Position numbers and translations under genes: made by a program. Positions 1-28,453 of a stretch of 64,000 nucleotides of DNA are shown here, in pieces. The notes beneath the pieces were generated by a model that ran no database searches, had not been told where the DNA came from, and worked only from the letters and a program-made list of their open reading frames with translations. Origin of the DNA: Erysipelotrichales bacterium (GTDB taxonomy: Bacteria; Bacillota_I; Bacilli_A; RFN20; CAG-826); the NCBI GenBank assembly GCA_022508525.1, contig JAFLVA010000001.1, positions 8,084-72,083 of the forward strand, written 5' to 3'. Each line of letters opens with the position of its first letter. Within the stretch, counting starts at the first letter, position 1.

Positions 1-1064
1 ACAATTCAAATAAACCAACTATTATTATGCTTTGTGGTTTGCAAGGATCTGGTAAAACAACAACAGCTGGTAAATTAGCAAAATTAATGAAGAACAAATT
101 ACATAAAAAAGTTCTTCTTGCTGCTTGTGACGTTTATCGTCCAGCTGCTATTGATCAATTAGTAACAATCGCTAACCAAGTTGGTGTAGAAGTTGTAAAT
201 ATGGGTACAAATGCTAACCCGGTTGATATTGCTAAAGCCGCAAGACAAAAAGCTTATGATGAAAGATATGATGTTTTAATTATAGATACCGCTGGTCGTT
301 TACATATTGACGAAGCATTAATGGATGAATTAAATAAAATAAAAGATTTAGTTAGCCCAGATGAAATTTTATTACTTGTTGATGCAATGTCTGGTCAAGA
401 TGCTGTAAACGTTGCAAATAGTTTTAATGCAAGATTAAATTTATCAGGTTTCATTATGTCTAAATTAGATGGTGACGCTCGTGGTGGTGCTGCCTTATCA
501 ATTAGACATTTAACTGGTCTACCTATTAAGTTAACCGGTGTTGGTGAAAAATTAGATGATTTGGAATTATTCTATCCAGATCGCATGGCTGATCGTATTT
601 TGGGCATGGGCGATGTCATGTCTTTAATTGAAAAAGCCCAAGAAAATATTGATGAAGCTGCTGCAAGAAAATCTGTTAATAAAATGATGGATGGAACATT
701 TGATTTGAATGATATGTTGGATCAAATGAAACAAATTCAAAAAATGGGTTCTATTAATGGAATATTAAAATTAATACCTGGTATGCCAAAAATATCTGAT
801 GCAGATAAGGAACGCGCAAATAGAGAAATGAAACAAACAGAAGCAATCATTAAATCTATGACACCTTATGAAAGAAAACACCCAGAAATTTTAAAAAATT
901 CTCGTAAAATGCGTATTGCCAAAGGTTGTGGTCTAACTAATGCCGATATCAATCGTATGCTTAAGAAATTTGAGCAAATGAAAGAAATGATGAAGCAAAT
1001 GAAAGGGTACAAAAAAGGCGGTAAATTGCCTCCAATGACTGGCATGGGCGGCGGACTCTTTTAA
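1..1064 (+). CDS. ffh: Signal recognition particle protein Ffh (5' partial)
   Basis: GLQGSGKTT P-loop, DTAGR, SKLDG motifs and Met-rich M domain; frame is open from base 3. Confidence 0.98.
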   Translation, partial: NSNKPTIIMLCGLQGSGKTTTAGKLAKLMKNKLHKKVLLAACDVYRPAAIDQLVTIANQVGVEVVNMGTNANPVDIAKAARQKAYDERYDVLIIDTAGRLHIDEALMDELNKIKDLVSPDEILLLVDAMSGQDAVNVANSFNARLNLSGFIMSKLDGDARGGAALSIRHLTGLPIKLTGVGEKLDDLELFYPDRMADRILGMGDVMSLIEKAQENIDEAAARKSVNKMMDGTFDLNDMLDQMKQIQKMGSINGILKLIPGMPKISDADKERANREMKQTEAIIKSMTPYERKHPEILKNSRKMRIAKGCGLTNADINRMLKKFEQMKEMMKQMKGYKKGGKLPPMTGMGGGLF

Positions 1065-1070
1065 GATTAT

Positions 1071-1104
1071 ACCTCTCTAAAGTAAGAGAGGTTTTAATTT
1101 TTTT
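1071..1104 (+). terminator. Intrinsic terminator after ffh
   Basis: ACCTCTCT-aaagta-AGAGAGGT hairpin followed by T-rich tract. Confidence 0.8.
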
Positions 1105-1111
1105 ATAAAAA

Positions 1112-1143
1112 GCGACGAAAATTATTATCTTAATTGTCTTATT
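1112..1143 (+). promoter_or_regulatory. Putative ECF-sigma (autoregulatory) promoter
   Basis: GCGACGAAA ... TTGTCTTATT between the ffh terminator and the sigma start; resembles the ECF -35 (AAC/GAC) and -10 (CGT/GTC) layout. Confidence 0.45.
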
Positions 1144-1162
1144 AAATGTTAAAGGTAAAATT

Positions 1163-1681
1163 ATGGCCAAAATTTCATCTAGAACTTTAAATAGATTAAA
1201 ATCTCCATCTAAAGAAAAAATGGAGAATGCCTTTAATACGATTTATAAAGAGTATTCTTATTTGGTATATTACATATCTTTAAAAATTGTAAAAGATAAA
1301 GAAATTGCAAAAGATATAACAAATGAAACATTTTTAAATTTTTTCGATAAAAAGAATTATATAAAAAATGTAAAAAGTATTAAATCATATTTAACTACTA
1401 CCAGTAAAAACTTATCCCTTAACCATCTAATAGATCAAGAAAGAAAAGTTCCATTTAATGAAGAGGTAGCAGAAGAGCAAAGATATGATGATTTCGAAAG
1501 TTATATATCTAAATTTAAAGAATATTTAGATGAGGAAGAAATTGATTTAATTGTTTATCATTTGTTATATGATTTTAGTTTTAAAGATATTGCACGAATA
1601 AATAATACAACCACTAATGCAATTTCTTCTAAATATCGACGAGCCATAATAAAAGTAAGAAAACATTTTAAGGAGATTTAA
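1163..1681 (+). CDS. ECF-type sigma-70 family RNA polymerase sigma factor
   Basis: 172 aa; region 2 (AFNTIYKEYSYLVY...AKDITNETFL) and region 4 HTH (FSFKDIA...TTNAISSKYRRA). Confidence 0.9.
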   Translation: MAKISSRTLNRLKSPSKEKMENAFNTIYKEYSYLVYYISLKIVKDKEIAKDITNETFLNFFDKKNYIKNVKSIKSYLTTTSKNLSLNHLIDQERKVPFNEEVAEEQRYDDFESYISKFKEYLDEEEIDLIVYHLLYDFSFKDIARINNTTTNAISSKYRRAIIKVRKHFKEI

Positions 1682-1683
1682 CT

Positions 1684-3162
1684 ATGAAAAACTTAAAAGA
1701 TAAAGTAAAAAAAGAGTTTGAATCTCAAATAGACACCGAATTAGATTTTGATACCACAACTCTTAATCCTAATCCTAAATCATTTCAAAATAAAATCATT
1801 ATACGTAGATCAATTATTGCCGCTGTTAGTGTCGTTGCTCTATGTATCATTTCCATTCCAATTTCTATTCCAATTCTTTTGATGCTAGATACTAAAGACA
1901 CATTTAAAACATATAAAAAGGAATACACGCAAAGTGAATTAAAACAAATCGAATTAAACACATTTAAAAAATTAAATGATGTTAGTTATCCAGAACAATT
2001 TTCTAAGCGTGAAGTAAGTGACGAATACCGTGAATCTGTCATAGATTTTTCTAATAAAATGTACTTTGCTATAGATCAAAATAATGCTGCATTTTCGCCA
2101 TTAAATTTATATATGAATCTTAGCATTTTATCATTAGCATCGAATAATGAAAACACCTTGAAAGAATTTGATAATTTACTAGGAATGAGTAAAGAATCAC
2201 GAGAAAAAGACTTCATAAATGCCTATATTAACGATTATTTTTATAATTCAAGTGGCACAATGCAAATGTATAATGGCTGTTTTGCTACTAACAAATTTGA
2301 TGCCAACAATGATTTTATTTCTAGTTTAACAAGACATTATACAGAGGCTTATCAAGTTGATTTTAATTCCGATGCATCAATTAATAAAATTTTATCTTGG
2401 ATTGATCAACGAGTGCAAGATAGGAATTTTTTGAACAAAAATAATTTGGAAATAGATGAAAATACAGCGATTCTTTTAATCTCAACACTTTATTATAAAA
2501 ACACTTGGTTTCATGAATTTGATAAACAAGATACGATTGAAAATGTTTTTTATTTAGAAGATAGGTCTACGCTTACTATTCCATATCTTTCTCATAAATA
2601 TTTTGGTGAATGCTATGATTATGAAGACTACATAAGTTGCTATGATTATTATGTAAATGGACTAAAAATTAAATATATCATTCCTAAAACTGATGTTTCG
2701 AAATCAATATTTGAATTAATTCACAATAAAAAAATTTTTGTAGATGATGAAACAAGAAGAATAAAACCAGAAACTTCATGGTATGAAAATCCTATTATTA
2801 ATTTAAAAGTGCCAAAATTTGAAAGTGAATGCCTAGTGGATTTTTCTTCAGCATTAAAAGCAAATGGCCTAAGAAGTTTGTTTGATCCAAATAGTCATAG
2901 TTTTGATTATGCTTTTGATAATTTGCCTAGCAATATGAGCATATATCTTGATTATGTTAAACAAAAGAATCACATATCTTTTGATGAATCTGGAACAACA
3001 CTTAAAAGCGTTACTTTTTCAGGATTTAAAGGCGCAACTTCTGCAGCACCAATGACTACGGATACCATTGATGTTAATTTGAATCGCCCTTTTGTTTATA
3101 TAATATACGATAGTAATGACTTACCAATATTTGTTGGAAATTTAAATAATCCTATAAAATAA
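1684..3162 (+). CDS. Membrane-anchored serpin-family protein (putative anti-sigma factor)
   Basis: Serpin motifs FSPLNL, INKILSWI, LLISTLYYKNTW, VPKFE, FDESGT, NRPFVYII, PIFVG; about 42-aa charged N-terminus then one TM helix. Confidence 0.88.
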   Translation: MKNLKDKVKKEFESQIDTELDFDTTTLNPNPKSFQNKIIIRRSIIAAVSVVALCIISIPISIPILLMLDTKDTFKTYKKEYTQSELKQIELNTFKKLNDVSYPEQFSKREVSDEYRESVIDFSNKMYFAIDQNNAAFSPLNLYMNLSILSLASNNENTLKEFDNLLGMSKESREKDFINAYINDYFYNSSGTMQMYNGCFATNKFDANNDFISSLTRHYTEAYQVDFNSDASINKILSWIDQRVQDRNFLNKNNLEIDENTAILLISTLYYKNTWFHEFDKQDTIENVFYLEDRSTLTIPYLSHKYFGECYDYEDYISCYDYYVNGLKIKYIIPKTDVSKSIFELIHNKKIFVDDETRRIKPETSWYENPIINLKVPKFESECLVDFSSALKANGLRSLFDPNSHSFDYAFDNLPSNMSIYLDYVKQKNHISFDESGTTLKSVTFSGFKGATSAAPMTTDTIDVNLNRPFVYIIYDSNDLPIFVGNLNNPIK

Positions 3163-3163
3163 A

Positions 3164-3188
3164 AAATCATTGCAATTTGCAATGATTT
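3164..3188. terminator. Bidirectional terminator between serpin and trmD
   Basis: AAATCATTGCAA-T-TTGCAATGATTT inverted repeat between convergent genes. Confidence 0.75.
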
Positions 3189-3963
3189 AATTTTTTTTGA
3201 TGAATTTATGACCTTTAGCAATGGCGTCTAATTCCCATTTGCCTGTTTCATTATTTTCAATTTCGTTAAGTAATTTTTGATCTTTTTTAGTTAATGGGAA
3301 ATTACTAAATAAATCAGGTCTTTTTTCTTTTGTTAATTTTAAGCTTTGCTTTTGTCTCCATTTCGCGATTGCTTCGTGATTTCCAGAAAATAAAATATCA
3401 GGCACTTTATCTCCATTAAAATCATATGGCTCAGTGTATTGTGGATATTCAAGCAAACCATTTTCAAAAGTTTCCTCAACAATAGATTCCTCTGATATTG
3501 CTCCATCGATCAACCTAATTACTGCATCAGCAATTACCATTGATCCAAGTTCGCCACCAGTGAGAATATAATCACCAATAGAAATGCATTCATCAACATA
3601 TTTTTCAATTCGAGAATCAACACCCTCATAATGGCCACATATGATAATTAAATGCTCATATTGCGTATATTTATGAGCAGTTTTTTGATTAAATGTTCCA
3701 CCAGTTGGAGACATAAGAATAACGTGAGAATTCTCAGTTTTAACACTATTTAATGCGTCAATAATTGGTTGGCACTTCATAATTAAACCAGCCCCTCCTC
3801 CGATTGGAGCAGAATCAACGCGTCCATATTTATCTTTAGTAAAATCACGAATATTTACGCATTCTAATTCAATAGCGTTTTTTGCGATTGCTCGTTTAAT
3901 TATTGAAGTGTTAATGAACCCATCATACATTTCTTTAAAGAGAGTCAAAAATGTTATTTTCAT
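3187..3963 (-). CDS. trmD: tRNA (guanine-N1)-methyltransferase
   Basis: GGGAGLIM, CGHYEGVDSR, SIGDYILTGGE, LEYPQYT motifs. Confidence 0.98.
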   Translation of the reverse strand: MKITFLTLFKEMYDGFINTSIIKRAIAKNAIELECVNIRDFTKDKYGRVDSAPIGGGAGLIMKCQPIIDALNSVKTENSHVILMSPTGGTFNQKTAHKYTQYEHLIIICGHYEGVDSRIEKYVDECISIGDYILTGGELGSMVIADAVIRLIDGAISEESIVEETFENGLLEYPQYTEPYDFNGDKVPDILFSGNHEAIAKWRQKQSLKLTKEKRPDLFSNFPLTKKDQKLLNEIENNETGKWELDAIAKGHKFIKKN

Positions 3964-4469
3964 AATAAACCCTCCACAACATGGATGATAATTTTATGGT
4001 TTTCAATATCAACATTTTTAACAAATGCTCTAACAAATGGAACTAACAAATCTTTTTTTCCATTTCTTTCTACGCGTAATGTTTGATATGCTGCATATTC
4101 TTCAACAGTCTTTACGTGGCCTAATAAGTTATTATCTTCATCAAAAACGTCACAAGACATTAACTCGTAATAATGATAATAATTTTTTGGTAGAGTAGCT
4201 TCCTCTTGTGGTATTTGCACTAAATAATTTTTAAATCGCTCAACATCATTAGCGTTTTTATATTCATTAAAAGAAACTATATCTAGATTTTTGTTTTGCT
4301 TAAAAGTAGCAATTGTAACCTCTTCGCGAATTCCAGTTTTTTCATTTAATAAGTAAACTTTTTTATTTTTCTTGTAGCGAGTATTAGAAAAATGAGAAGA
4401 AGAATAAATTTTAACTTCTCCCTTTATCCCGAATATTCCAACAATTCTACCTAAGGTTATATATTCCAT
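3960..4469 (-). CDS. rimM: Ribosome maturation factor RimM
   Basis: GRIVGIFGIKGEVK N-terminus, PRC barrel (LLVPFV), synteny. Confidence 0.95.
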   Translation of the reverse strand: MEYITLGRIVGIFGIKGEVKIYSSSHFSNTRYKKNKKVYLLNEKTGIREEVTIATFKQNKNLDIVSFNEYKNANDVERFKNYLVQIPQEEATLPKNYYHYYELMSCDVFDEDNNLLGHVKTVEEYAAYQTLRVERNGKKDLLVPFVRAFVKNVDIENHKIIIHVVEGLL

Positions 4470-4505
4470 AATACTAATACTCCAATATTTGAAAAAATGA
4501 GGATA

Positions 4506-4772
4506 TTAGTCCTCATTAGTTTTTTCATCAAAAGATTCGAATTTCAAATGAACTCTTTTATTTTCTAGTTTGCCTGCAATTGAAACAACCTCACGTAAGG
4601 CATCGGCAACAATACCTTTTCTACCAATAAGTTTAGCAGTATCTGTTTGATTTGCGACAACTAAGATTAATACATCTTTTTCTGATTCATTTGGCATTTC
4701 TCTAACCATTAATGATTCAGGATTGTCAATAAAAGAATCGACAAAAGCATGGATAATCTTTTCGTAATCCAT
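4506..4772 (-). CDS. khpA: KH-domain RNA-binding protein (YlqC/KhpA)
   Basis: LIGRKG GxxG loop; located between rpsP and rimM. Confidence 0.85.
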   Translation of the reverse strand: MDYEKIIHAFVDSFIDNPESLMVREMPNESEKDVLILVVANQTDTAKLIGRKGIVADALREVVSIAGKLENKRVHLKFESFDEKTNED

Positions 4773-4777
4773 GATAA

Positions 4778-5044
4778 TTATTCTCCTTTTTTGTTTGCTT
4801 TAGCGATGATGCCTGCTTTTGAGAATAAAGCACGGACAGTATCAGAAAGTTGTGCACCTTCGTGAATCCATTTGATTGCTTTTTCTTCATCAATTTTAGC
4901 TTGGTTTTCTTTTGCTAATGGATCGAATGTTCCTAATAATTCGATATAACGGCCATCACGTGGGAATCTGCTGTCAGCAGCAACAATTCTATATGATGGA
5001 TCCTTATGACGACCAGTTCTTGTTAATCTAATTTTTACAGCCAT
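4778..5044 (-). CDS. rpsP: 30S ribosomal protein S16 (start corrected to MAVKIRL)
   Basis: MAVKIRLTR...[17 protein letters not shown]; AAGGAG RBS upstream of ATG at 5044. Confidence 0.98.
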
Positions 5045-5202
5045 TTTAATAATCTCCTTTTTTCTTAAAATTACAATACTGATTATATATAAGACTATAA
5101 TTAATGTCAAGTATTTTTACTTAACACTATATAAAATATTTCCTTTGAACGAAAGCGCTTTATATGATAAACTAATAAAGTTGAGAAAGAGGTAAATTTT
5201 TT

Positions 5203-21738: not shown

Positions 21739-22890
21739 ATGACACGTTTAATAGTACTTGGTATATCTGGATCTATAGGATCACAAACTCTTGATATAAT
21801 TAGAAGACATAAGCGTAAATTTGTGCTATGTGGCTTTTCGGTTGGAGAAAGAATTAACTGTGTCGATGAGATTTTAAAAGAGTTTAAAACAATATCGTTT
21901 GTTGTTGTAAAAAATAAAAGTGACAAAGAAAAATTAGAGAAAATATATCCACATATTAAATTTTCTTATGGTGATGATGGATTATTAGAATTAATTAAAC
22001 AAGTGGAATGTGATTTGGTTGTTAATGCACTTGTTGGATTTGTTGGATTTTTACCAACTATTTGTGCTTTAGAAAACGGGAGAGACTTAGCACTAGCAAA
22101 TAAAGAATCTCTAGTTGTTGGTGGAAATTTAGTAAATCAATTACTAAAAAAGACAAATACTAAATTATACCCAATTGATAGTGAACATGTGGCACTTGCA
22201 AAATGTTTAAAAGGTAATAAAAAAGCTAAAAAATTAGTTTTGACAGCTTCTGGTGGAAGCTTTAGAGATCTAAATCGTAATGAATTAGAAAATGTCACAG
22301 TCGAAGATGCTTTAAAACACCCATCATGGAATATGGGACAAAAAATAACTATTGATTGTGCAACAATGATGAATAAAGGATTTGAGATAATTGAAGCATA
22401 TCATTTATTCAATTTTCCAATTGATAAGATTGATGTCTTGTTACATGACGAATCAAAAATTCATTCTCTAGTCGAATTTGAAGATGGTTCATTCTTGGCT
22501 GATATTGGTCCGGCTGATATGCGAATACCAATTAGCCATGCGTTATTTAGAAATAAAAGGGTAAAAAACACTTTTGCTAGTTTACCTCTTGACGAATTTG
22601 GAACTTTCCATTTTAGAAAGTTTGATCCTAAGAGATATCCTTGTGTCGGTTATGCCAAAAAGGCTATAGCAATTGGTGGAACGATGCCAGCAGTACTTAA
22701 TGGCGCTAACGAAGAAGCAGTTTATGCATTTTTACGAAAAGAAATCAAATTTTTAAGTATTGAAAAGATAATTGAAGAAGTTATGGAGCGACATGAAATT
22801 GTTCAAAATCCTACTGTTCAAGATCTTGTAGATGCGGATAAGTGGGCAAGAGAAGAAGTTAGAAGATTAATAAAGGAGAATAATTTATGA
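21739..22890 (+). CDS. dxr: 1-deoxy-D-xylulose-5-phosphate reductoisomerase
   Basis: GSIGSQTL, LANKESLV, PIDSEH, HPSWNMGQKITID. Confidence 0.97.
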   Translation: MTRLIVLGISGSIGSQTLDIIRRHKRKFVLCGFSVGERINCVDEILKEFKTISFVVVKNKSDKEKLEKIYPHIKFSYGDDGLLELIKQVECDLVVNALVGFVGFLPTICALENGRDLALANKESLVVGGNLVNQLLKKTNTKLYPIDSEHVALAKCLKGNKKAKKLVLTASGGSFRDLNRNELENVTVEDALKHPSWNMGQKITIDCATMMNKGFEIIEAYHLFNFPIDKIDVLLHDESKIHSLVEFEDGSFLADIGPADMRIPISHALFRNKRVKNTFASLPLDEFGTFHFRKFDPKRYPCVGYAKKAIAIGGTMPAVLNGANEEAVYAFLRKEIKFLSIEKIIEEVMERHEIVQNPTVQDLVDADKWAREEVRRLIKENNL

Positions 22891-24077
22891 TATTAGCATC
22901 ATCAATCAGTATATGGTCAGTATTACTTTTTATTTTAAGCTTAGGCTTATTAATTACTATTCATGAACTTGGACATTTTTCAATGGCTAAGCTTTTTAAT
23001 GTTTACGTAAATGAATTTGCAATTGGATTTGGTCCAAGACTTTTAAAATTCAAAAAAGGTGAAACCACATATGCGTTGCGCGCAATTCCACTAGGTGGAT
23101 TCGTTTCAATGTATGGTGAAGGTGTGGAAATCACAGATGGATCAGTACCACCAGAAAGAAGCTTGCTAGGGATTAAGAAGTGGAAACGTGCGATTATCAT
23201 GGTTGCAGGTATAACCTTAAACTTTATTCTTGGATTCACTTTGTTTTTTGTAAATAATGCTTTCTTTCCTCAGGCTAATTACACTAATCAAGTAACAATT
23301 ATTGAGGGTGAAAAAATTACTAGTGAGGAATATAAATCATTTGATATTGAAACGGGAGATTATATCATTAGAATTGATAAAAAATGTACTATCAACGGTG
23401 ATTCAAATGCATGTTCATCAAAAAGTGGGGACATTAAAGATTTTAATGATCTATGGTATAGCGAATATGGTTTTTCATACACCGAAGATATTTTGCCAGT
23501 GACAGAAGATGACAAAATGGAAGTTACTATTCATTATGTCAAAGAGAATACAACTACTGACGAATCAAAGCAAATTACATTAACTTTATCTCCAGCAATG
23601 AAAGATGGAAAATTTGTCCTTGAAAGTGGTAGAAAAACTTGGGAAAAGATGGGGGTTGGACAATATGTTTATTATCGTCATTTGGGAAGCTTTGGTAAAG
23701 TAATAACAACTACTTTCTCAGATTTTGGAAATAACACTATTTTAATTGCTAAAACTTTAGGAGGATTATTTGTTGGTAAAAACTGGGATCAAATTGGAGG
23801 ACCGGTGGCTATTTTATCGGCTTCAAGTGTAGTCCTAAAAAATGCTAATTTCGGTACGTATATATATTTATGGGGAACAATTTCTGTTAATTTAGCAATA
23901 TTTAATCTTTTGCCTTTCCCTGGACTAGATGGTTGGCATTTATTAGTTGTGGCGATTGAAGCAATAACAAAGAAAGAAATACCAGAGAAGGTAAAAAATA
24001 TCATCTCTGCTGTTGGTATGATTTTACTGTTTGGTTTAATGATATTTATTGTTGGTAGAGATATTTTTCGCATATAA
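22887..24077 (+). CDS. rseP: Site-2 (M50) intramembrane metalloprotease RseP/RasP
   Basis: HELGH, AIPLGGFV, NLLPFPGLDG; divergent PDZ-like middle. Confidence 0.93.
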   Translation: MILASSISIWSVLLFILSLGLLITIHELGHFSMAKLFNVYVNEFAIGFGPRLLKFKKGETTYALRAIPLGGFVSMYGEGVEITDGSVPPERSLLGIKKWKRAIIMVAGITLNFILGFTLFFVNNAFFPQANYTNQVTIIEGEKITSEEYKSFDIETGDYIIRIDKKCTINGDSNACSSKSGDIKDFNDLWYSEYGFSYTEDILPVTEDDKMEVTIHYVKENTTTDESKQITLTLSPAMKDGKFVLESGRKTWEKMGVGQYVYYRHLGSFGKVITTTFSDFGNNTILIAKTLGGLFVGKNWDQIGGPVAILSASSVVLKNANFGTYIYLWGTISVNLAIFNLLPFPGLDGWHLLVVAIEAITKKEIPEKVKNIISAVGMILLFGLMIFIVGRDIFRI

Positions 24078-24094
24078 GTTAGTTGGTGAAGTAA

Positions 24095-27000
24095 ATGGAT
24101 CGAAGTGTTTTTGAAAGATTTTTGAAAAAGATAAATATCAAAAATGTCGAAGATTTCGATATGTCTTTTGATGTGTGCGAATGGGATCCTTTAAGACGCC
24201 GTGAAAAAGTTTTATTAATGGAAATTAGAAAAGATATTCCTTGGACTTATCCATTGCTCATGACATTTTTATCCGCAATAAACACAATCAAGGATTATCG
24301 TTATGAAATTCATTATCATTATAATATTTCTCCTAATGAAGAAGATGTTTATCGTCTATTAACAGAATGGTACTATGATAAAACTAACGTAGCGTTTTTG
24401 GAAGACTATCATTTTGAAAATAATAAAATTATTATCGACGCAGAAGATGAAAATAAAATAAAAAGCGAATTAGAAGGTTTTATTAATCTATTAAAAACAA
24501 TAGATTATGATTTTGAAATTGTTGTTCAAAAAAAAGAAAAACAATATGTTTCTGAAGAGTTAGATTCTTTTGAAGTAGATGATGATTATGATGAATACGA
24601 CAATTTTGATGAAGAGGAATTTTTCCAACAAAGAAAAAACAAACAATACGAAGATGCAGAACAAGCAATTGAAGAATATGTTCCTTTTGAAGAAAAAAAG
24701 AACGACTTTAATAATGGTGCTTTTAAACTTATAAAAATTGGTGCAATTGACACTAATTCAGAAAATGTTGATTTTAATGGAAAAGTATTTAGTTGTTCAG
24801 AAACCACAACGAAAAAAGGGAAACTAATTGTAGTTTATGGAATTGCTGATGAAAGAGGAGATGCAATTCACGTCAAAGCCTTTGAAGGTGGAAAGTATTT
24901 TACATCCGACAAATTCCATAGCATTAAAATTGGTATGAACGTTAGAGTACGTGGATCTGCATCATATGATCAATATTCAAAAGAATTAGCTGTAATGGCA
25001 AGATTCATTGATGTGTTACCACCTGACGAATTAAGGCTTGATAATGAAGAAAATAAACGCGTTGAATTGCATTTACACACCAAAATGTCTACTATGGATG
25101 GCGTTACTAACATTGAAGATTATGTTCGTCTTGCTGCCCAAATGGGACACAAAGCAATAGCAGTGACTGATCATGGAGTAGTACAAGCATTCCCTGCTGC
25201 CCAAAAAGCTGGTAAGGATAATAATGTTAAAATTCTTTATGGTACAGAATTATATGTTATAGATGATGAAGTAAATGCGATTAGAAACCCATGCAACCGT
25301 GAACTTTCAACTGCAGAATATGTAGTATTTGACTTTGAAACTACCGGTTTATCAACAAAGTATGATGATATTATTGAATTTGGTGCAGTTAAATTTTCGC
25401 AAGGTATGATTCGTGAGCGAATTGATTTATTTGTGGAAATAAATCGCCCGATACCAAAAAAGATTAAAAAAATTACGGGCATTACTGATGATATGCTAGT
25501 CGGTCAAAATTCTTTAGTTGAAGCAGTGCATAAAATGAGAAAATTTATTGGTGATGCTATATTAGTATCGCACAACGCAGATTTTGACTTTGGCTTTTTA
25601 AATGAAGCATGTCGTAAAGTGAATGAGGATATTTTTTCAAATCCTGTTATAGATACACTAGCACTTGCCCGTTATATTTTTCCTGAATCAAAAGGACATA
25701 GATTAGGGGCACTTTGTAACAATATGGATGTTATATACGATGAGGATGCTGCTCACCGTGCGGATTATGATGCGGAAGTTTTAAATGAAGTTTGGCAAGC
25801 AATGATTGCGGTTTTAACAAAAGATAATCCACATTTGACTCATGCTGATTTAGGTGAGTTAAAACTAAAAGAAGAGCATTATAAACATTTAAGACCATTT
25901 CATGTTGTAGCACTAGCTCAAGATAATGAAGGAATTAAAAATTTATTCAAATTAGTTTCTGAATCACATATTAAATATTTTGCAAATGTCCCAAAAGTAC
26001 CACGGAGTTTATTAATTAAATTACGTGAACATCTACTATTAGGTAGTGCTTGCTTCAATGGTGAAGTTTTTGATGCTGCAAAAACACGCACTAAAGAAGT
26101 GCTGAAAAAAGTTGTTTCATTTTACGATTATATTGAAGTACAACCTGATTCTAATTATTCATATTTGATAAATATGGAAGAAGTAGAGAGCATTGATGTT
26201 ATTCATCAATTTATTAAAGATATTATTGAGGCAGCAGATGAAGAACAAAAACTTGTTGTTGCAACAGGCGATGTTCATTATTTAAATCCTTCAGACAAAA
26301 TATATCGTGATGTTTTTATTAGTGCAAAAGCGATTGGAAACGCAAACCATCCATTAATGCCATATTCAAGGGAAAAGATGGAGTATTTTGTAAACCCTGA
26401 TCAACACTATAGAACAACGAGAGAAATGCTTGATGCTTTTAACTATCTAGGTGAAGAACGTGCTTATGAAATTGTTGTTAAAAACACCAATTTAATTGCA
26501 GATTCGCTTGAATCAGTAAAACCTTTAAAAGATAAGTTATATACACCAACTATTGAAAATTGTGAAAATTTATTGCGTGAATTATGCTACAATACTGCAC
26601 ACGAAATGTATGGTGATAATTTACCACCAATTGTTGCAGAACGTTTAGAAAAAGAATTAGATGGTATTATTAATAACGGATATTCAGTTATTTATTATAT
26701 TGCTCATAAAATTATTAAAAAATCTAACGAAGATGGATACATGGTAGGATCACGTGGATCTGTTGGATCATCATTCGTTGCAACAATGGCAAAAATTACA
26801 GAGGTTAATCCTTTGCCTCCACACTATGTTTGCCCACATTGTAAGCATAGCGAATTTGAAGATATACCTAAAGTGTCATCTGGTTTTGATTTACCAGAAA
26901 AAGATTGCCCAATCTGTGGAACAAGAATGAAACATGATGGACAAAACATTCCATTTGCGACATTCTTAGGTTTTAATGCGGATAAGGTTCCTGATATTGA

Positions 27001-28453
27001 TCTTAACTTCCCTGGTGACTATCAAGGAAGAGCATTCCTTTATACTAAAGAATTGTTGGGACCGGATAATGTTTTTAAAGCTGGCACTATTGAAACTGTT
27101 GCAGAAAAGAATGCCTATGGTTACGCTAGAGGATATTTTGAAAGAATCGGACCAAAAATTGGTAGAGATTTAGACAAAGTTAATAAGGCACAAATTGAAT
27201 ATTTAGCAGCAGGGTGTACTGGCGTTAAAAGAACGACTGGCCAACATCCTGGTGGTATTGTTGTTATTCCGACAGGCTATGAAGTATATGATTTTACGCC
27301 AATTCAATATCCTGCCGATAACAAAGAATCTGAGTGGAGAACAACACATTTTGATTTCCATGCAATTCACGATAATATCTTAAAACTGGATTTATTAGGA
27401 CATGTAGACCCTATGGCATTAAAAATGATGTCTGATAATACAGGAATTGATGTTAAAACAATTCCATTAAATGATCCTGAAACACTTTCTATCTTTTCAA
27501 GCCGTAATGCTTTAAATTGCCACTCTAATTATTTGAATGAGTCGACAGGTGCTTTGGGTATTCCAGAATTTGGAACAAATCTTGGTCGAGAAATGTTAAA
27601 AGAAACATCACCGAAATTATTTTCAGACTTACTAATTCTTTCTGGATTATCTCATGGTACAGGTGTTTGGGCTGGTAATGCACAAGAGCTAATTAGAAAT
27701 GGTACCTGTACTTTAAGAGAAGTTATTGGATGTCGTGATGATATTATGACTTACCTAGCAGCACATGGCGTTGAACCATTGACAGCTTTTAAAATTATGG
27801 AAGATGTTCGTAAAGGTAAAAAAGTTAAACCTGAATATGAACAAATAATGCACGATAATAATATTCCGCAATACTATATCGACTCATGTAATAAAATTAT
27901 GTACATGTTCCCAAAAGCACACGCAACAGCCTATGTTATGATGGCAATTCGTGTTGGTTGGTTTAAAGTACATAGACCTTTAGATTATTATGCAGTTTAT
28001 TTGTCTGTTCGCTGTGAGCAATTTGAATTAGAAACGATGCTTAGCGGTGAAAAAGAAATTATTCGAAGATTAGAAGAGCTTAAAGCCAAAGGTTATGATG
28101 CTTCAGCAAAAGAAACTGAAATAATTAAAACATTAACTATATGTCTTGAAATGGCAGAACGTGGCTATAAATTTGAAAAAATTGATCTTTATAAATCTGA
28201 TGCAACAAAATTTGTGGTCGATTATGAAAATAATTTATTAATACCACCATTTATTGCCATTGATGGATTAGGAGAAGCAGCAGGAGAATCTGTAATTGAA
28301 GCAAGAAAAGATGGAAAATTCCTATCCAAAGAAGATCTTCTTGCAAGAAGTAGATTATCACAAACTCACGTTGCTAAATTACAAGAATTAGGTTCTTTAG
28401 ATGGTTTAGCGGAAACTAACCAAATGGATTTATTTTCATTCTTTAATATTTAA
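24095..28453 (+). CDS. polC: DNA polymerase III PolC-type
   Basis: ELHLHTKMS PHP, DFETTG exonuclease, GSRGSVGSS, PDIDLNF, YMFPKAHA. Confidence 0.98.
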   Translation: MDRSVFERFLKKINIKNVEDFDMSFDVCEWDPLRRREKVLLMEIRKDIPWTYPLLMTFLSAINTIKDYRYEIHYHYNISPNEEDVYRLLTEWYYDKTNVAFLEDYHFENNKIIIDAEDENKIKSELEGFINLLKTIDYDFEIVVQKKEKQYVSEELDSFEVDDDYDEYDNFDEEEFFQQRKNKQYEDAEQAIEEYVPFEEKKNDFNNGAFKLIKIGAIDTNSENVDFNGKVFSCSETTTKKGKLIVVYGIADERGDAIHVKAFEGGKYFTSDKFHSIKIGMNVRVRGSASYDQYSKELAVMARFIDVLPPDELRLDNEENKRVELHLHTKMSTMDGVTNIEDYVRLAAQMGHKAIAVTDHGVVQAFPAAQKAGKDNNVKILYGTELYVIDDEVNAIRNPCNRELSTAEYVVFDFETTGLSTKYDDIIEFGAVKFSQGMIRERIDLFVEINRPIPKKIKKITGITDDMLVGQNSLVEAVHKMRKFIGDAILVSHNADFDFGFLNEACRKVNEDIFSNPVIDTLALARYIFPESKGHRLGALCNNMDVIYDEDAAHRADYDAEVLNEVWQAMIAVLTKDNPHLTHADLGELKLKEEHYKHLRPFHVVALAQDNEGIKNLFKLVSESHIKYFANVPKVPRSLLIKLREHLLLGSACFNGEVFDAAKTRTKEVLKKVVSFYDYIEVQPDSNYSYLINMEEVESIDVIHQFIKDIIEAADEEQKLVVATGDVHYLNPSDKIYRDVFISAKAIGNANHPLMPYSREKMEYFVNPDQHYRTTREMLDAFNYLGEERAYEIVVKNTNLIADSLESVKPLKDKLYTPTIENCENLLRELCYNTAHEMYGDNLPPIVAERLEKELDGIINNGYSVIYYIAHKIIKKSNEDGYMVGSRGSVGSSFVATMAKITEVNPLPPHYVCPHCKHSEFEDIPKVSSGFDLPEKDCPICGTRMKHDGQNIPFATFLGFNADKVPDIDLNFPGDYQGRAFLYTKELLGPDNVFKAGTIETVAEKNAYGYARGYFERIGPKIGRDLDKVNKAQIEYLAAGCTGVKRTTGQHPGGIVVIPTGYEVYDFTPIQYPADNKESEWRTTHFDFHAIHDNILKLDLLGHVDPMALKMMSDNTGIDVKTIPLNDPETLSIFSSRNALNCHSNYLNESTGALGIPEFGTNLGREMLKETSPKLFSDLLILSGLSHGTGVWAGNAQELIRNGTCTLREVIGCRDDIMTYLAAHGVEPLTAFKIMEDVRKGKKVKPEYEQIMHDNNIPQYYIDSCNKIMYMFPKAHATAYVMMAIRVGWFKVHRPLDYYAVYLSVRCEQFELETMLSGEKEIIRRLEELKAKGYDASAKETEIIKTLTICLEMAERGYKFEKIDLYKSDATKFVVDYENNLLIPPFIAIDGLGEAAGESVIEARKDGKFLSKEDLLARSRLSQTHVAKLQELGSLDGLAETNQMDLFSFFNI

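What the first reader, a model, noticed from the sequence alone, without database searches (positions are those of the whole stretch)
1112..3162. ECF sigma factor paired with a transmembrane serpin in the anti-sigma position: candidate protease-sensing system
Seen: a two-gene unit bounded by terminators (1071-1104 and 3164-3188). The sigma stop is 2 nt from the next ATG, with the RBS inside the sigma gene. The second protein has about 42 charged residues, one TM helix with no lipobox or clear signal-peptidase site, then a complete serpin fold. Its hinge reads E-S-G-T-T-L-K-S-V-T (about 2986-3015). Established: ECF sigmas are usually co-transcribed with a single-pass anti-sigma built as short cytoplasmic domain, TM, external sensor. 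Inhibitory serpins need small residues (GTEAAAAT) at P12-P9, and bulky Leu/Lys there favours substrate-like behaviour. Inference: the serpin is a receptor. Its exposed loop (FSGFKGATSAAP) baits host or microbial proteases, and cleavage would serve as the site-1 step before RseP-type proteolysis releases the sigma. I know of no characterised serpin anti-sigma.
Basis: partly seen in the sequence, partly recalled or inferred. Interest (0 to 1): 0.88.

Follow-up and report, generated by a model that had tools for sequence, protein, structure and literature searches.

The report
Serpin-tipped anti-sigma factor with its sigma
A gut bacterium carries a two-gene switch in which a membrane protein holds a sigma factor inside the cell and displays a complete protease-trapping serpin outside, which probably lets the cell make more serpin when proteases attack.

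Summary
Window 1163-1681 encodes an ECF sigma factor. Window 1684-3162 encodes a 492-aa protein built as a 42-aa cytoplasmic head, one TM helix and a full serpin. Terminators bound the pair.

The pairing is conserved. In 301 genomes of the same order, 61 serpin places were found in 58 genomes. 43 have a sigma homolog directly upstream, plus L050 by eye. All linked ORFs have a long N-terminal head. The 17 unlinked ORFs lack the head or are fragments. Outside the order, 0 of 39 Bacilli serpin ORFs are linked.

A complex model places residues 4-34 between sigma regions 2 and 4: ipSAE 0.71, best control 0.01.

An ECF-type promoter (CGAC-N18-TGTCTTA) precedes the sigma gene. It is the only strong match in this genome and in 9 relatives' genomes. 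The module therefore seems to drive only itself.

The odd hinge is a clade trait and is not tied to sigma linkage. Five sigma-linked serpins have canonical hinges.

Best reading: a protease-triggered, self-replenishing surface serpin. The architecture is well supported. The trigger and the proteolytic steps are inferred. My searches found no paper that describes it.

The parts
1071..1102 (+). Intrinsic terminator ending the upstream ffh gene; left boundary of the module
   Evidence: an 8-bp stem at 1071-1092 followed by a T-run. ffh is ORF 3-1064.
1113..1146 (+). ECF-type autoregulatory promoter: -35-like CGACGAAA at 1113-1120 and -10-like TGTCTTA at 1135-1141, about 20 nt before the sigma start
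   Evidence: the motif is conserved upstream of the sigma gene in 21 of 43 loci (at least 14 of 16 motif positions). A PWM built without the window's own site scores it 32.7 bits. The next best hit in the genome scores 16.5 bits and lies inside a 1025-aa ORF.
1163..1681 (+). ECF sigma factor, 172 aa (region 2 at about 1241-1444, region 4 at about 1526-1663)
   Evidence: Sigma70_r2 E 6.6e-7; region 4 below cut-off. (TIGR02937, 49 bits against a cut-off of 42.9). Homologs lie upstream of 42 other serpin genes.
1670..1675 (+). Ribosome-binding site (AAGGAG) of the serpin gene, inside the sigma gene
   Evidence: Read directly. It lies 8 nt before ATG 1684.
1684..3162 (+). Anti-sigma/serpin fusion protein, 492 aa
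1684..1809 (+). Cytoplasmic anti-sigma head, residues 1-42 (amphipathic helix 2-16, then the motif L-x-F-D-x-x-x-L)
   Evidence: The pattern M-K-x-L-K-x-x-V-K-x-D-F...L-x-F-D is conserved in the sigma-linked rows. AF2 models a helix at 2-16. In the complex model residues 4-34 touch sigma residues 13-65 and 113-171, ipSAE 0.71 against 0.01 for the best control. No Pfam family matches at E <= 0.1.
1810..1887 (+). Single transmembrane helix (about residues 43-68), N-in orientation, containing Pro
   Evidence: AF2 models a helix at 36-66. KIIIRR precedes it. Pro occurs in the hydrophobic stretch in 41 of 43 linked and 12 of 14 unlinked homologs.
1888..2055 (+). Extracellular juxtamembrane linker (residues 68-78 at low confidence, Lys-rich) and a conserved N-terminal extension of the serpin (helix 83-93; motif ELKxIExxSFKKLNxVxYP). 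Candidate site-1 region
   Evidence: pLDDT below 50 at 68-78; helix 83-93. (conserved motif, also present in unlinked members). The site-1 role is inference.
2056..3153 (+). Serpin domain, residues 125-490
   Evidence: PF00079, profile positions 9-370 of 370. (pLDDT mostly above 85). (Foldseek: 415 PDB matches at E <= 0.001; all rows listed are serpin entries, and one of them, 9hl2, the vaccinia A56/K2 structure, holds the viral serpin K2, a point I recall rather than read from the title).
2986..3015 (+). Hinge P17-P8: E-S-G-T-T-L-K-S-V-T
   Evidence: P17, P15 and P14 fit the inhibitory consensus. P12-P9 (L-K-S-V) do not fit A/G/S (consensus quoted in PMC2689274).
3016..3060 (+). Exposed reactive-centre loop (F445-T459: FSGFKGATSAAPMTT)
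   Evidence: pLDDT below 50 at 446-459. A small-residue run ending ...S-A-A-P is semi-conserved.
3164..3188 (.). Bidirectional terminator shared with the convergent trmD gene; right boundary of the module
   Evidence: an 11-bp stem with T-runs on both strands.
22887..24077 (+). RasP/RseP-type site-2 protease (M50), candidate trans-acting partner
   Evidence: PF02163, E 1.3e-55, 396 aa. Its action on this anti-sigma factor is inferred, not shown.

Best explanation
This is a self-contained, autoregulated ECF sigma / anti-sigma module whose anti-sigma factor is a membrane-anchored serpin.

Shown by computation:
- The two genes form one unit with its own ECF-type promoter and terminators.
- The first 42 residues of the serpin protein form a short cytoplasmic anti-sigma head. 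It is predicted to lie between sigma regions 2 and 4.
- One TM helix places a complete serpin, with an exposed reactive loop, outside the cell.

Inferred:
- Extracellular proteases attack the ectodomain. They react with the serpin loop, cut the Lys-rich disordered juxtamembrane linker, or both.
- The remaining stub is cut in the membrane by the RasP-type protease encoded at 22887-24077, and the head is degraded.
- The freed sigma factor transcribes its own promoter.
- That promoter is the only strong match in the genome. The main product of induction is therefore more sigma factor and more surface serpin.

The result would be consumption-coupled resupply of a single-use protease trap or decoy in the protease-rich gut. 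Whether the ectodomain inhibits proteases or is merely cleaved by them is open.
For: Architecture:
- establish the two genes, their junction and the terminators.

Conserved pairing:
- 43 of 60 scored serpin ORFs from 58 of 301 genomes of the order have a sigma homolog directly upstream on the same strand. Gaps run from -80 to +37 nt and are mostly -4 to +2. L050 adds one more by eye.
- That gives 44 genomes in 4 of the 8 families sampled.
- Linked ORFs have 30-70 residues (median 43) before the TM helix. Unlinked ORFs have a median of 8.
- A second, overlapping sample gave 28 linked of 47 full-length ORFs.
- Control: 0 of 39 serpin ORFs from other orders of the class are linked.

Binding:
- ipSAE was 0.71 (runs 0.72, 0.71, 0.69) against 0.01 for the best of 3 controls.
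- The mark was reached by 58 of 80 solved complexes and by 2 of 110 mismatched pairs.
- The runs agree in at least 89% of their contacts. Partner pLDDT was 73-74.

Co-inheritance:
- Pairwise identity of sigma against the head gives r = 0.84. Sigma against the serpin domain gives r = 0.75.

Promoter:
- The motif is conserved in 21 of 43 loci.
- In the window's genome its own site scores 32.7 bits. The next best scores 16.5 bits and lies inside a long ORF.
- In 9 of the 10 relatives' genomes searched, the only exact match is upstream of that genome's own sigma-serpin pair. G018 had no match.

Other support:
- No third gene is conserved next to the pair.
- Unlinked members nested in the same clade keep the membrane anchor and the serpin, so the ectodomain has a function of its own.
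- A site-2 protease is present.
- Pro occurs in the TM stretch of 41 of 43 linked proteins.
- RsiV sets a precedent for an anti-sigma factor that is itself the receptor of a host enzyme (PMC6066255, abstract read).
Against: - There is no experimental or expression evidence.
- The complex score is a model's own confidence. It used my own alignments and may draw on memory of solved sigma/anti-sigma complexes.
- The linked/unlinked contrast rests on only 2 well-supported independent changes on the tree (4 on all branches). The sign test gives p = 0.5.
- The hinge has a bulky P12 (I, V, L or F) in 25 of 40 linked core-clade members and Lys at P11 in 29 of 40. By the published consensus this argues against efficient inhibition and weakens the 'effector' half of the model.
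- A cut in the reactive loop leaves the ectodomain attached.
- No site-1 protease or site is identified, and the window protein has no clear signal-peptidase site.
- The genome is 92% complete.
- A PWM or exact pattern can miss diverged target promoters. The patterns were derived from the sites themselves.
- 22 of 43 loci carry other promoter variants that I did not scan for.
- AF2 models the hinge as an inserted strand both here and in the canonical control serpin. The models therefore say nothing about the native state.
Confidence: 0.6

Rival explanations
1. The serpin is a pure, non-inhibitory bait receptor. Cleavage of its reactive loop is the site-1 event, and the sigma factor then turns on a protective regulon elsewhere in the genome.
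For: - The hinge P12-P9 departs from the A/G/S consensus.
- The anti-sigma position and the predicted binding hold.
- The genome is only 92% complete, and diverged promoters could be missed.
Against: - The loop is at residues 445-459 of 492. A cut there does not shorten the ectodomain, as S2P-type proteases are known to require (established knowledge; review PMC10202637 seen only as listing and start of abstract).
- The same hinge occurs in 13 of 13 unlinked clade members, and five linked serpins have canonical hinges.
- No second promoter match was found in this genome or in nine relatives' genomes.
- No third gene is conserved next to the pair.
Confidence: 0.17
2. The pair is a sigma / anti-sigma pair, but the serpin domain senses something other than proteolysis. 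It could bind a ligand, as the hormone-carrier serpins do. It could also act as a heat, pH or time switch through spontaneous conversion to the latent form.
For: - Non-inhibitory serpins with binding roles exist. The cortisol-binding globulin structures are among the closest folds.
- The hinge is atypical.
- The juxtamembrane extension is conserved. A comparable N-terminal extension controls the native-to-latent switch in tengpin (PDB titles 2pee and 2pef; the mechanism is recalled).
Against: - P17 Glu, P15 Gly and P14 Thr/Ser are kept in 36, 40 and 36 of 40 linked core members, as in loop-inserting serpins.
- The exposed loop is rich in small residues.
- The public records of relatives are gut and rumen assemblies, a protease-rich habitat.
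- Linked members with fully canonical inhibitory hinges exist.
Confidence: 0.1
3. The adjacency has no regulatory meaning. The N-terminal head is only an unusually long signal-anchor, and the sigma factor is controlled in another way.
For: - The head matches no known anti-sigma family in Pfam.
- The number of independent evolutionary events is small.
Against: - At a cut of 28 residues, head and upstream sigma go together in all 57 rows that could be scored for both.
- Start and stop codons overlap or nearly touch.
- The complex model scores 0.71 against 0.01 for the best control.
- The head tracks the sigma factor in sequence, r = 0.84.
- 0 of 39 serpin ORFs outside the order are linked.
Confidence: 0.03

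Closest known systems
RsiV / sigma-V (Bacillus subtilis, Clostridioides difficile): an anti-sigma factor that is itself the receptor for host lysozyme
   Same: - A single-pass anti-sigma factor with a short cytoplasmic head.
- Its extracellular domain directly meets a host hydrolytic enzyme.
- It is then destroyed by site-1 cleavage and RasP (PMC6066255 abstract read; PMC4183432 and PMC5014341 seen as listing and start of abstract).
   Different: - The ectodomain here is a serpin (PF00079), not the RsiV domains.
- The sigma-V regulon includes separate resistance genes according to those abstracts. Here no target beyond the operon was found.
- Site-1 cleavage by signal peptidase is not indicated for the window protein.
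RseA-DegS-RseP and RsiW-PrsW-RasP regulated intramembrane proteolysis
   Same: - The general logic: a membrane anti-sigma factor, ectodomain removal, and an M50 site-2 protease.
- An M50 homolog is present in the window.
   Different: - In those systems a dedicated bacterial site-1 protease senses the signal (recalled).
- Here the ectodomain is a protease substrate or inhibitor fold, so foreign proteases could be both the signal and the site-1 enzyme (inference).
Protease-inducible serpin operon of Bifidobacterium breve, controlled by a two-component system (Alvarez-Martin et al. 2012)
   Same: The output logic matches: serpin expression is autoregulated, and as I recall it is raised by proteases. 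I saw only the title, as a reference in PMC8201313. The paper is not held, so its content is recalled.
   Different: - There the sensor is a separate histidine kinase.
- Here sensor, anti-sigma factor and effector would be one polypeptide.
Bacterial surface or lipoprotein serpins, including miropin (PDB 5ncs) and this genome's own two tandem lipoprotein serpins
   Same: A complete serpin fold displayed at the cell surface of a host-associated bacterium.
   Different: - Those are lipid-anchored and have Ala-rich hinges. This genome's copies read GIEGAAITAV.
- This genome's own two copies have no sigma gene within the sequence read upstream and no match to the module's promoter. For miropin I checked no gene neighbourhood.
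Short (class II, CnrY-type) anti-sigma domains
   Same: A cytoplasmic segment of about 40 residues, much shorter than the four-helix class I domain, predicted to contact both sigma region 2 and region 4. The comparison with CnrY is recalled, not tested.
   Different: - No sequence family match.
- No structural comparison was made.

Membership tests
ECF (group IV) sigma-70 factors | Regions 2 and 4 only, about 170-200 aa, matches ECF profiles | tested here: met
   172 aa. Sigma70_r2 is over cut-off and the region 4 matches are below cut-off. TIGR02937 scores 49 bits against a cut-off of 42.9. No equivalog or subfamily model reaches its cut-off.
ECF (group IV) sigma-70 factors | Co-transcribed cognate anti-sigma factor and an autoregulated promoter with conserved -35 and -10 elements | tested here: met
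   Gap of 2 nt to the next gene. The motif CGAC-N18-TGTCTTA is conserved in 21 of 43 loci and unique in the genome. Transcription itself was not tested.
Serpins (PF00079) | Full-length serpin fold | tested here: met
   PF00079 E 8.5e-42, covering profile positions 9-370 of 370. AF2 mean pLDDT 83.3. Foldseek best match E 5.5e-26 to cleaved vaspin, and all rows listed are serpin entries.
Inhibitory serpins | Hinge consensus: P17 E, P16 E/K/R, P15 G, P14 T/S, P12-P9 A/G/S | tested here: not met
   The window reads E-S-G-T-T-L-K-S-V. P17, P15 and P14 fit; P16 and P12-P9 do not. In 40 linked core members P12 is I/V/L/F in 25 and Ala in 12.
Inhibitory serpins | Covalent, SDS-stable complex with a target protease | not testable with these tools
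   Needs purified ectodomain and proteases.
Class I anti-sigma domains (zf-HC2 / RskA type) | Sequence match to a known anti-sigma domain family | tested here: not met
   The only Pfam match at E <= 0.1 is Serpin. There are no NCBIfam matches. Atlas look-alikes of residues 1-124 are serpin fragments only, and the best score of 0.89 is below the tool's 0.9 bar.
Anti-sigma factors in general | Binds its sigma factor across regions 2 and 4 | tested here: inconclusive
   The model supports binding: ipSAE 0.71 against 0.01 for the best control. The mark was reached by 58 of 80 solved complexes and 2 of 110 mismatched pairs. Partner pLDDT was 73-74 and runs agree in at least 89% of contacts. This is a prediction, not a measurement.
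RIP-controlled membrane anti-sigma factors (RsiV, RsiW, RseA type) | Single-pass, N-in topology; an M50 site-2 protease in the genome | tested here: met
   One predicted helix at 36-66 with KIIIRR on the N-side. An M50 protease is encoded at 22887-24077.
RIP-controlled membrane anti-sigma factors (RsiV, RsiW, RseA type) | Signal-dependent site-1 cleavage followed by site-2 cleavage | not testable with these tools
   No site-1 site or enzyme was identified. The linker at 68-78 is only a candidate.

The most novel reading that the evidence does not exclude
The serpin 'mousetrap' itself is the transmembrane signal. Attack by a protease triggers loop insertion. That conformational change frees the conserved juxtamembrane extension and exposes the linker to cutting, so each spent serpin releases one sigma factor and orders its own replacement. 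This would be a one-polypeptide sensor, anti-sigma factor and effector that counts the consumption of a suicide inhibitor.
Probability: 0.3. Interest if true: 0.9.

Novelty: new variant of a known kind. Interest (0 to 1): 0.8.

Why it matters
- Serpins are known as soluble or surface protease inhibitors. None is known to me, or turned up in my searches, as the sensing domain of a transmembrane signalling protein.
- ECF anti-sigma factors are known with many sensor domains. Three full-text searches found none with a serpin.
- If the model holds, gut bacteria with very small genomes use a two-gene circuit that detects protease attack with the same molecule that counters it. This would be a compact solution to the cost of single-use inhibitors.
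- It would also give a natural, portable protease-responsive gene switch.
- The system is directly testable with a reporter in Bacillus subtilis and with purified ectodomain.

Tried and rejected
- Expression evidence: the look-up of sequencing runs listed no RNA holder. I did not lay reads.
- AF2 state of the hinge. The model has P15-P7 (437-445) as a strand after s5A, and the best Foldseek matches are cleaved or latent serpins. The control model of this genome's canonical lipoprotein serpin shows the same feature (396-403 as a strand). I therefore rejected it as evidence about inhibitory capacity.
- TM proline as a mark of S2P substrates: present in 41 of 43 linked but also in 12 of 14 unlinked proteins, so it does not discriminate.
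- Conserved third gene: none among the linked loci. The largest shared flank clusters belong to unlinked loci or to close relatives.
- Promoter upstream of the lipoprotein serpins on contig C34: best PWM scores were -6.8 and -3.5 bits, so they are not targets.
- Search with residues 1-112 alone found only P0001 and P0002 among 171 candidates. This gives no information on other partners of the head.
- Atlas search of residues 1-124 gave only serpin fragments, with scores under the tool's 0.9 bar.
- Independent-contrast test of head against sigma linkage: only 2 to 4 independent pairs, p = 0.5. The association is perfect but rests on few events.
- Cut-off used in that test. In one search I used 25 residues, which left L038, L116, L118 and L124's second serpin as unlinked ORFs with long heads. 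L038 and L116 are over-extended ORF calls. L118 is a misplaced hydrophobic window. L124's second serpin is real. In one search I used 28 residues, chosen after seeing L038.
- Taxonomy look-up of 'Candidatus Enteromonas' found nothing. My guess that the order is GTDB RFN20 is recalled, not tested.
- Supplements of the ECF reclassification paper could list a serpin-bearing anti-sigma group. They are closed, so I could not check.
Full report
WHAT IS THERE

The window opens with the 3' part of ffh (3-1064) and a terminator (stem 1071-1092 plus a T-run). Two tightly coupled genes follow on the + strand. A bidirectional terminator at 3164-3188 is shared with the convergent trmD-rimM-KH-rpsP genes. 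Four terminator-like sites were found in 900-3400, against 0.8 +/- 0.9 in shuffles. Sigma-70-type promoter-like sites were not enriched (16 against 16.7).

Gene 1 (1163-1681, 172 aa):
- It matches Sigma70_r2 over cut-off. Region 4 matches are below cut-off.
- It passes the ECF superfamily model TIGR02937 at 49 bits against a cut-off of 42.9. No subfamily or equivalog model reaches its cut-off.

Gene 2 (1684-3162, 492 aa):
- It starts 2 nt after the sigma stop codon, behind an AAGGAG that lies inside the sigma gene.
- Its only family match is Serpin. Residues 125-490 cover profile positions 9-370 of 370, E 8.5e-42.
- Before the serpin lie 42 mostly charged residues ending in KIIIRR, then a hydrophobic stretch (about 43-68), then about 55 further residues.

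STRUCTURE MODELS

An AlphaFold2 model built on 43 homologs has mean pLDDT 83.3. It shows:
- a helix at 2-16;
- a long helix at 36-66 (the membrane span);
- a low-confidence stretch at 68-78;
- a helix at 83-93;
- a confident serpin body, with a low-confidence loop at 446-459.

Foldseek finds 415 PDB matches at E <= 0.001, and all rows listed are serpin entries. The best are loop-cleaved or latent forms. The model draws hinge residues 437-445 as a strand.

As a control I modelled one of the genome's two canonical lipoprotein serpins. Its hinge (396-403) is drawn as a strand too. The inserted state is therefore how the program treats both proteins. It says nothing about inhibition.

IS THE PAIRING REAL?

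Survey of the window's order:
- I searched 301 genomes with the serpin protein. 58 genomes (23 of 65 genera) have a match at E <= 1e-20, at 61 places.
- I fetched all 61 places. I called ORFs and scored them against the window's two proteins.

Result for the 60 serpin ORFs scored:
- 43 have a sigma homolog directly upstream on the same strand. Gaps run from -80 to +37 nt and are mostly -4 to +2.
- 17 have no sigma homolog upstream.
- The 61st place (L050) runs off its contig and was not scored. Read by eye, it also has a sigma-like ORF overlapping its start and a long head.

Of the 17 unlinked ORFs, four cannot be judged:
- L062 is a fragment of a gene with an in-frame stop.
- L064 is cut by the contig end.
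- L037 and L039 have under 400 nt held upstream.
- The other 13 have a short N-terminus that runs straight into a signal-anchor or lipoprotein-like segment.

Length of the head:
- Linked ORFs have 30-70 residues (median 43) before the hydrophobic stretch. Unlinked ORFs have a median of 8 (which pools).
- The two samples overlap, because both draw on species-representative genomes.
- The apparent exceptions are over-extended ORF calls (L038, L116), a misplaced hydrophobic window (L118), and the second serpin of L124.

Second sample. A scan of named species-representative contigs gave 57 serpin ORFs, of which 47 have 380 aa or more. 28 of those are linked and 19 are not.

Control outside the order. 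A serpin-family search of 401 genomes of the phylum sample, all of which the tool reports as the same class, gave these results:
- 39 serpin ORFs came from other orders, and none has a sigma homolog upstream. Four of them have under 450 nt of upstream sequence held.
- 13 ORFs came from the window's own order. Four are linked.

One linked case lies outside the class. This is L124, a contig titled as an Eubacteriales MAG, with the order serpin - sigma - serpin.

Range and habitat:
- The linked architecture was seen in 44 of 301 genomes of the order, in 4 of its 8 sampled families.
- Public record titles of relatives read 'Bacilli bacterium', 'Erysipelotrichaceae bacterium', 'Candidatus Enteromonas sp.', 'Firmicutes bacterium CAG:449' and 'uncultured Mollicutes bacterium'. 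Isolate names point to gut and rumen assemblies.

HISTORY

I built a quick maximum-likelihood tree of the last 395 residues of 60 proteins, leaving the head's own columns out.
- A fully supported core clade holds 53 rows: 40 linked and 13 unlinked.
- The unlinked rows are nested inside it. They form one clade of 11 plus L009 and L043.
- A separate supported clade of three linked rows (L059, L061, L063) lies outside the core.
- The fewest changes of the label are 5. Well-supported branches force only 2.
- Independent contrasts give 2 concordant pairs on starred branches and 4 on all branches, p = 0.5.

The association of head and sigma factor is without exception, but it rests on few evolutionary events. 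The simplest history is an old fusion followed by a few joint losses of the sigma gene and the head.

Pairwise identities of the sigma factor track those of the head (r = 0.84) and of the serpin domain (r = 0.75; 0 of 500 permutations reached either value). This shows co-inheritance. It does not by itself show co-adaptation.

DOES THE HEAD BIND THE SIGMA FACTOR?

- The head matches no Pfam or NCBIfam family.
- Its pattern is shared by linked proteins of both clades: M-K-x-L-K-x-x-V/F-K-x-D-F, then L-x-F-D-x-x-x-L.
- A complex prediction of the sigma factor with residues 1-42, each given as a 43-row alignment, scored ipSAE 0.71 (runs 0.72, 0.71, 0.69). The best of three controls scored 0.01.
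- The mark was reached by 58 of 80 solved complexes and by 2 of 110 mismatched pairs. These counts hold only roughly, because my own alignments were used.
- The runs agree in at least 89% of their contacts. Partner pLDDT was 73-74.
- Residues 4-34 touch sigma residues 13-65 (region 2) and 113-135 and 165-171 (region 4). This is the clamp position expected of an anti-sigma domain.
- The result supports binding but does not show it. Sigma/anti-sigma complexes have been solved, so part of the score may come from likeness to them.

WHAT DOES THE SIGMA FACTOR TRANSCRIBE?

The motif:
- Upstream of the sigma start, 21 of 43 loci carry CGAC[G/A]AAA-N14-TGT[C/A/T]TTAT at 14 or more of 16 positions. It ends about 20 nt before the start codon.
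- In the window this is 1113-1146.
- Other loci carry variants with the usual ECF look, -35 ...GAAC / CGAAC and -10 CGT[C/T].

Scan of the window's genome (1.47 Mb, 92% complete):
- A PWM built from the 20 sites of other genomes scores the window's own site at 32.7 bits. The training range is 25.5-42.1.
- The next best hit scores 16.5 bits. That hit and the one after it lie inside ORFs of 1025 and 815 aa.
- The two lipoprotein serpin genes on contig C34 have no site.

Scan of relatives' genomes:
- I searched ten genomes with an exact pattern. In nine of them the only exact match is upstream of that genome's own sigma-serpin pair.
- G018, whose promoter is a variant, had no match.
- One-mismatch matches occurred at the rate of the reversed-pattern control.

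No third gene is conserved beside the pair. As far as these scans can see, the module transcribes only itself.

Caveats:
- The patterns came from the sites themselves.
- Diverged targets would be missed.
- The assemblies are incomplete.

THE HINGE

The published rule for inhibitory serpins is P17 E, P16 E/K/R, P15 G, P14 T/S, P12-P9 A/G/S (passages of PMC2689274).

In the 40 linked core-clade proteins:

| Position | Residues (count of 40) |
|---|---|
| P17 | E 36 |
| P15 | G 40 |
| P14 | T/S 36 |
| P12 | I 13, A 12, V 10 |
| P11 | K 29 |
| P10 | S/T 37 |
| P9 | L/V/I 39 |

- The 13 unlinked core proteins have the same pattern: P12 is V or I in 13, and P11 is K in 12.
- Five linked proteins outside the core clade carry canonical hinges. 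These are L059, L061 and L063 (G-V/I-E-A-A-A-Y-T), L141 (GIEGAAYT), and L124 (GISAAAGT).
- The unusual hinge therefore belongs to a clade, not to the signalling role.
- The inward-facing positions (P14, P12, P10, P8) are T, I/V/A, S/T and T/S. This pattern is still compatible with a strand.
- Ovalbumin, with Val at P12, inserts its loop once P14 Arg is changed to Thr (PDB title 1jti; the details are recalled).
- I cannot tell from sequence whether these proteins inhibit proteases or are only cleaved by them.

MECHANISM

Shown by computation:
- the gene pair, its conservation, the topology and the serpin fold;
- the predicted head-sigma contact;
- the self-directed promoter;
- the presence of an M50 site-2 protease in the window (22887-24077).

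Inferred:
- The trigger is extracellular proteolysis.
- A cut in the reactive loop (445-459 of 492) would leave nearly the whole ectodomain on the anchor. It cannot be the site-1 step in the usual sense.
- The likeliest site-1 region is the disordered, Lys-rich linker just outside the membrane (68-82).
- That linker could be cut directly once proteases exceed what the serpin can hold off. It could also be exposed when the serpin changes shape after loop cleavage.
- The RsiV precedent is relevant. There a juxtamembrane amphipathic helix shields the site-1 site until lysozyme binds (PMC6066255, abstract).
- The core clade has a conserved helix at 83-93 in a comparable place. That helix is also present in unlinked members, so I give it little weight.

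The module appears to drive only itself, and unlinked relatives keep the anchored serpin. The serpin is therefore most simply both sensor and product. Protease attack would lead to more surface serpin.

COMPARISON AND NOVELTY

- The system works like RsiV/sigma-V: an anti-sigma factor that directly meets a host enzyme. It also resembles the RIP systems in general.
- Its output logic matches the protease-responsive, autoregulated serpin operon of Bifidobacterium breve, which uses a two-component system. I saw that paper only as a reference title and it is not held.
- It is a member of the ECF sigma and serpin families.
- It is not a member of any described anti-sigma domain family by sequence.
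- It does not meet the inhibitory hinge rule.

Full-text searches found no paper that describes a serpin as an anti-sigma factor:
- 'serpin' with 'anti-sigma factor': 14 papers.
- 'ECF sigma' with 'serpin': 3 papers.
- 'serpin' with 'extracytoplasmic function': 5 papers.

The ECF reclassification paper is in the library but is not among the papers that hold 'serpin'.

The source databases call the homologs 'hypothetical protein'.

I rate this a new variant of a known kind: a known signalling scheme with a sensor domain of a new type, and possibly a new closed-loop logic.

VERDICT

- Observation: confirmed.
- The architecture is well supported: about 0.9 that this is a true sigma / anti-sigma pair with a serpin ectodomain.
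- The protease-triggered, self-replenishing mechanism is my best reading, at about 0.6 overall.
- Interest: 0.8.

Noticed in passing
G000 contig C34:33608-36327 (loci L001, L003): Two tandem lipoprotein serpins of 451 and 443 aa, about 61% identical, with lipoboxes LVSC and LTAC. Both have canonical Ala-rich hinges (KGIEGAAITAV). No sigma gene precedes them, and they have no match to the module's promoter.
   Followed up: partly
window 3-1064 and 3187-5110: The usually co-oriented ffh / rpsP-KH-rimM-trmD genes are convergent here, with the sigma-serpin module at the junction. The same-genus genome G187 has the same neighbours. In other genera the module sits in other contexts.
   Followed up: partly
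L124:815-4630: A higher-GC contig titled as an Eubacteriales MAG carries serpin (463 aa) - ECF sigma (183 aa) - serpin (493 aa). Both serpins have a cytoplasmic head and a TM helix, and both have canonical hinges. No sigma gene was found in the 814 nt upstream of the first serpin.
   Followed up: partly
L168-L170, L172, L173 (genomes G577, G609, G639, G648): One family of the class has TM-anchored serpins of 553-586 aa with long acidic N-terminal tails. The Pfam serpin match is split into two parts (about profile positions 14-172 and 197-370), which suggests an inserted segment. L171 (G310, another family) shows the same split match but begins like a lipoprotein. None has a sigma gene upstream.
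   Followed up: no
genomes G092 and G098 (L010/L061 and L015/L059): Each of these two genomes holds both an unlinked core-clade serpin with the odd hinge and a sigma-linked serpin with a canonical hinge.
   Followed up: no
window 21739-28453: dxr (383 aa), the RasP-type M50 protease (396 aa) and a 1452-aa ORF lie in a row on the + strand. From its size and position I guess the last is PolC, but I did not test this.
   Followed up: partly
L047-L049, downstream of the serpin gene: In three closely related linked loci a 203-aa lipoprotein-like ORF follows the serpin gene on the same strand. It could be an extra member of the operon in that lineage.
   Followed up: no
G000 contig C52:25127-25519: A second, small M50-family protein (252-aa open frame) is present in the genome, besides six Sigma70_r2-bearing genes.
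   Followed up: no
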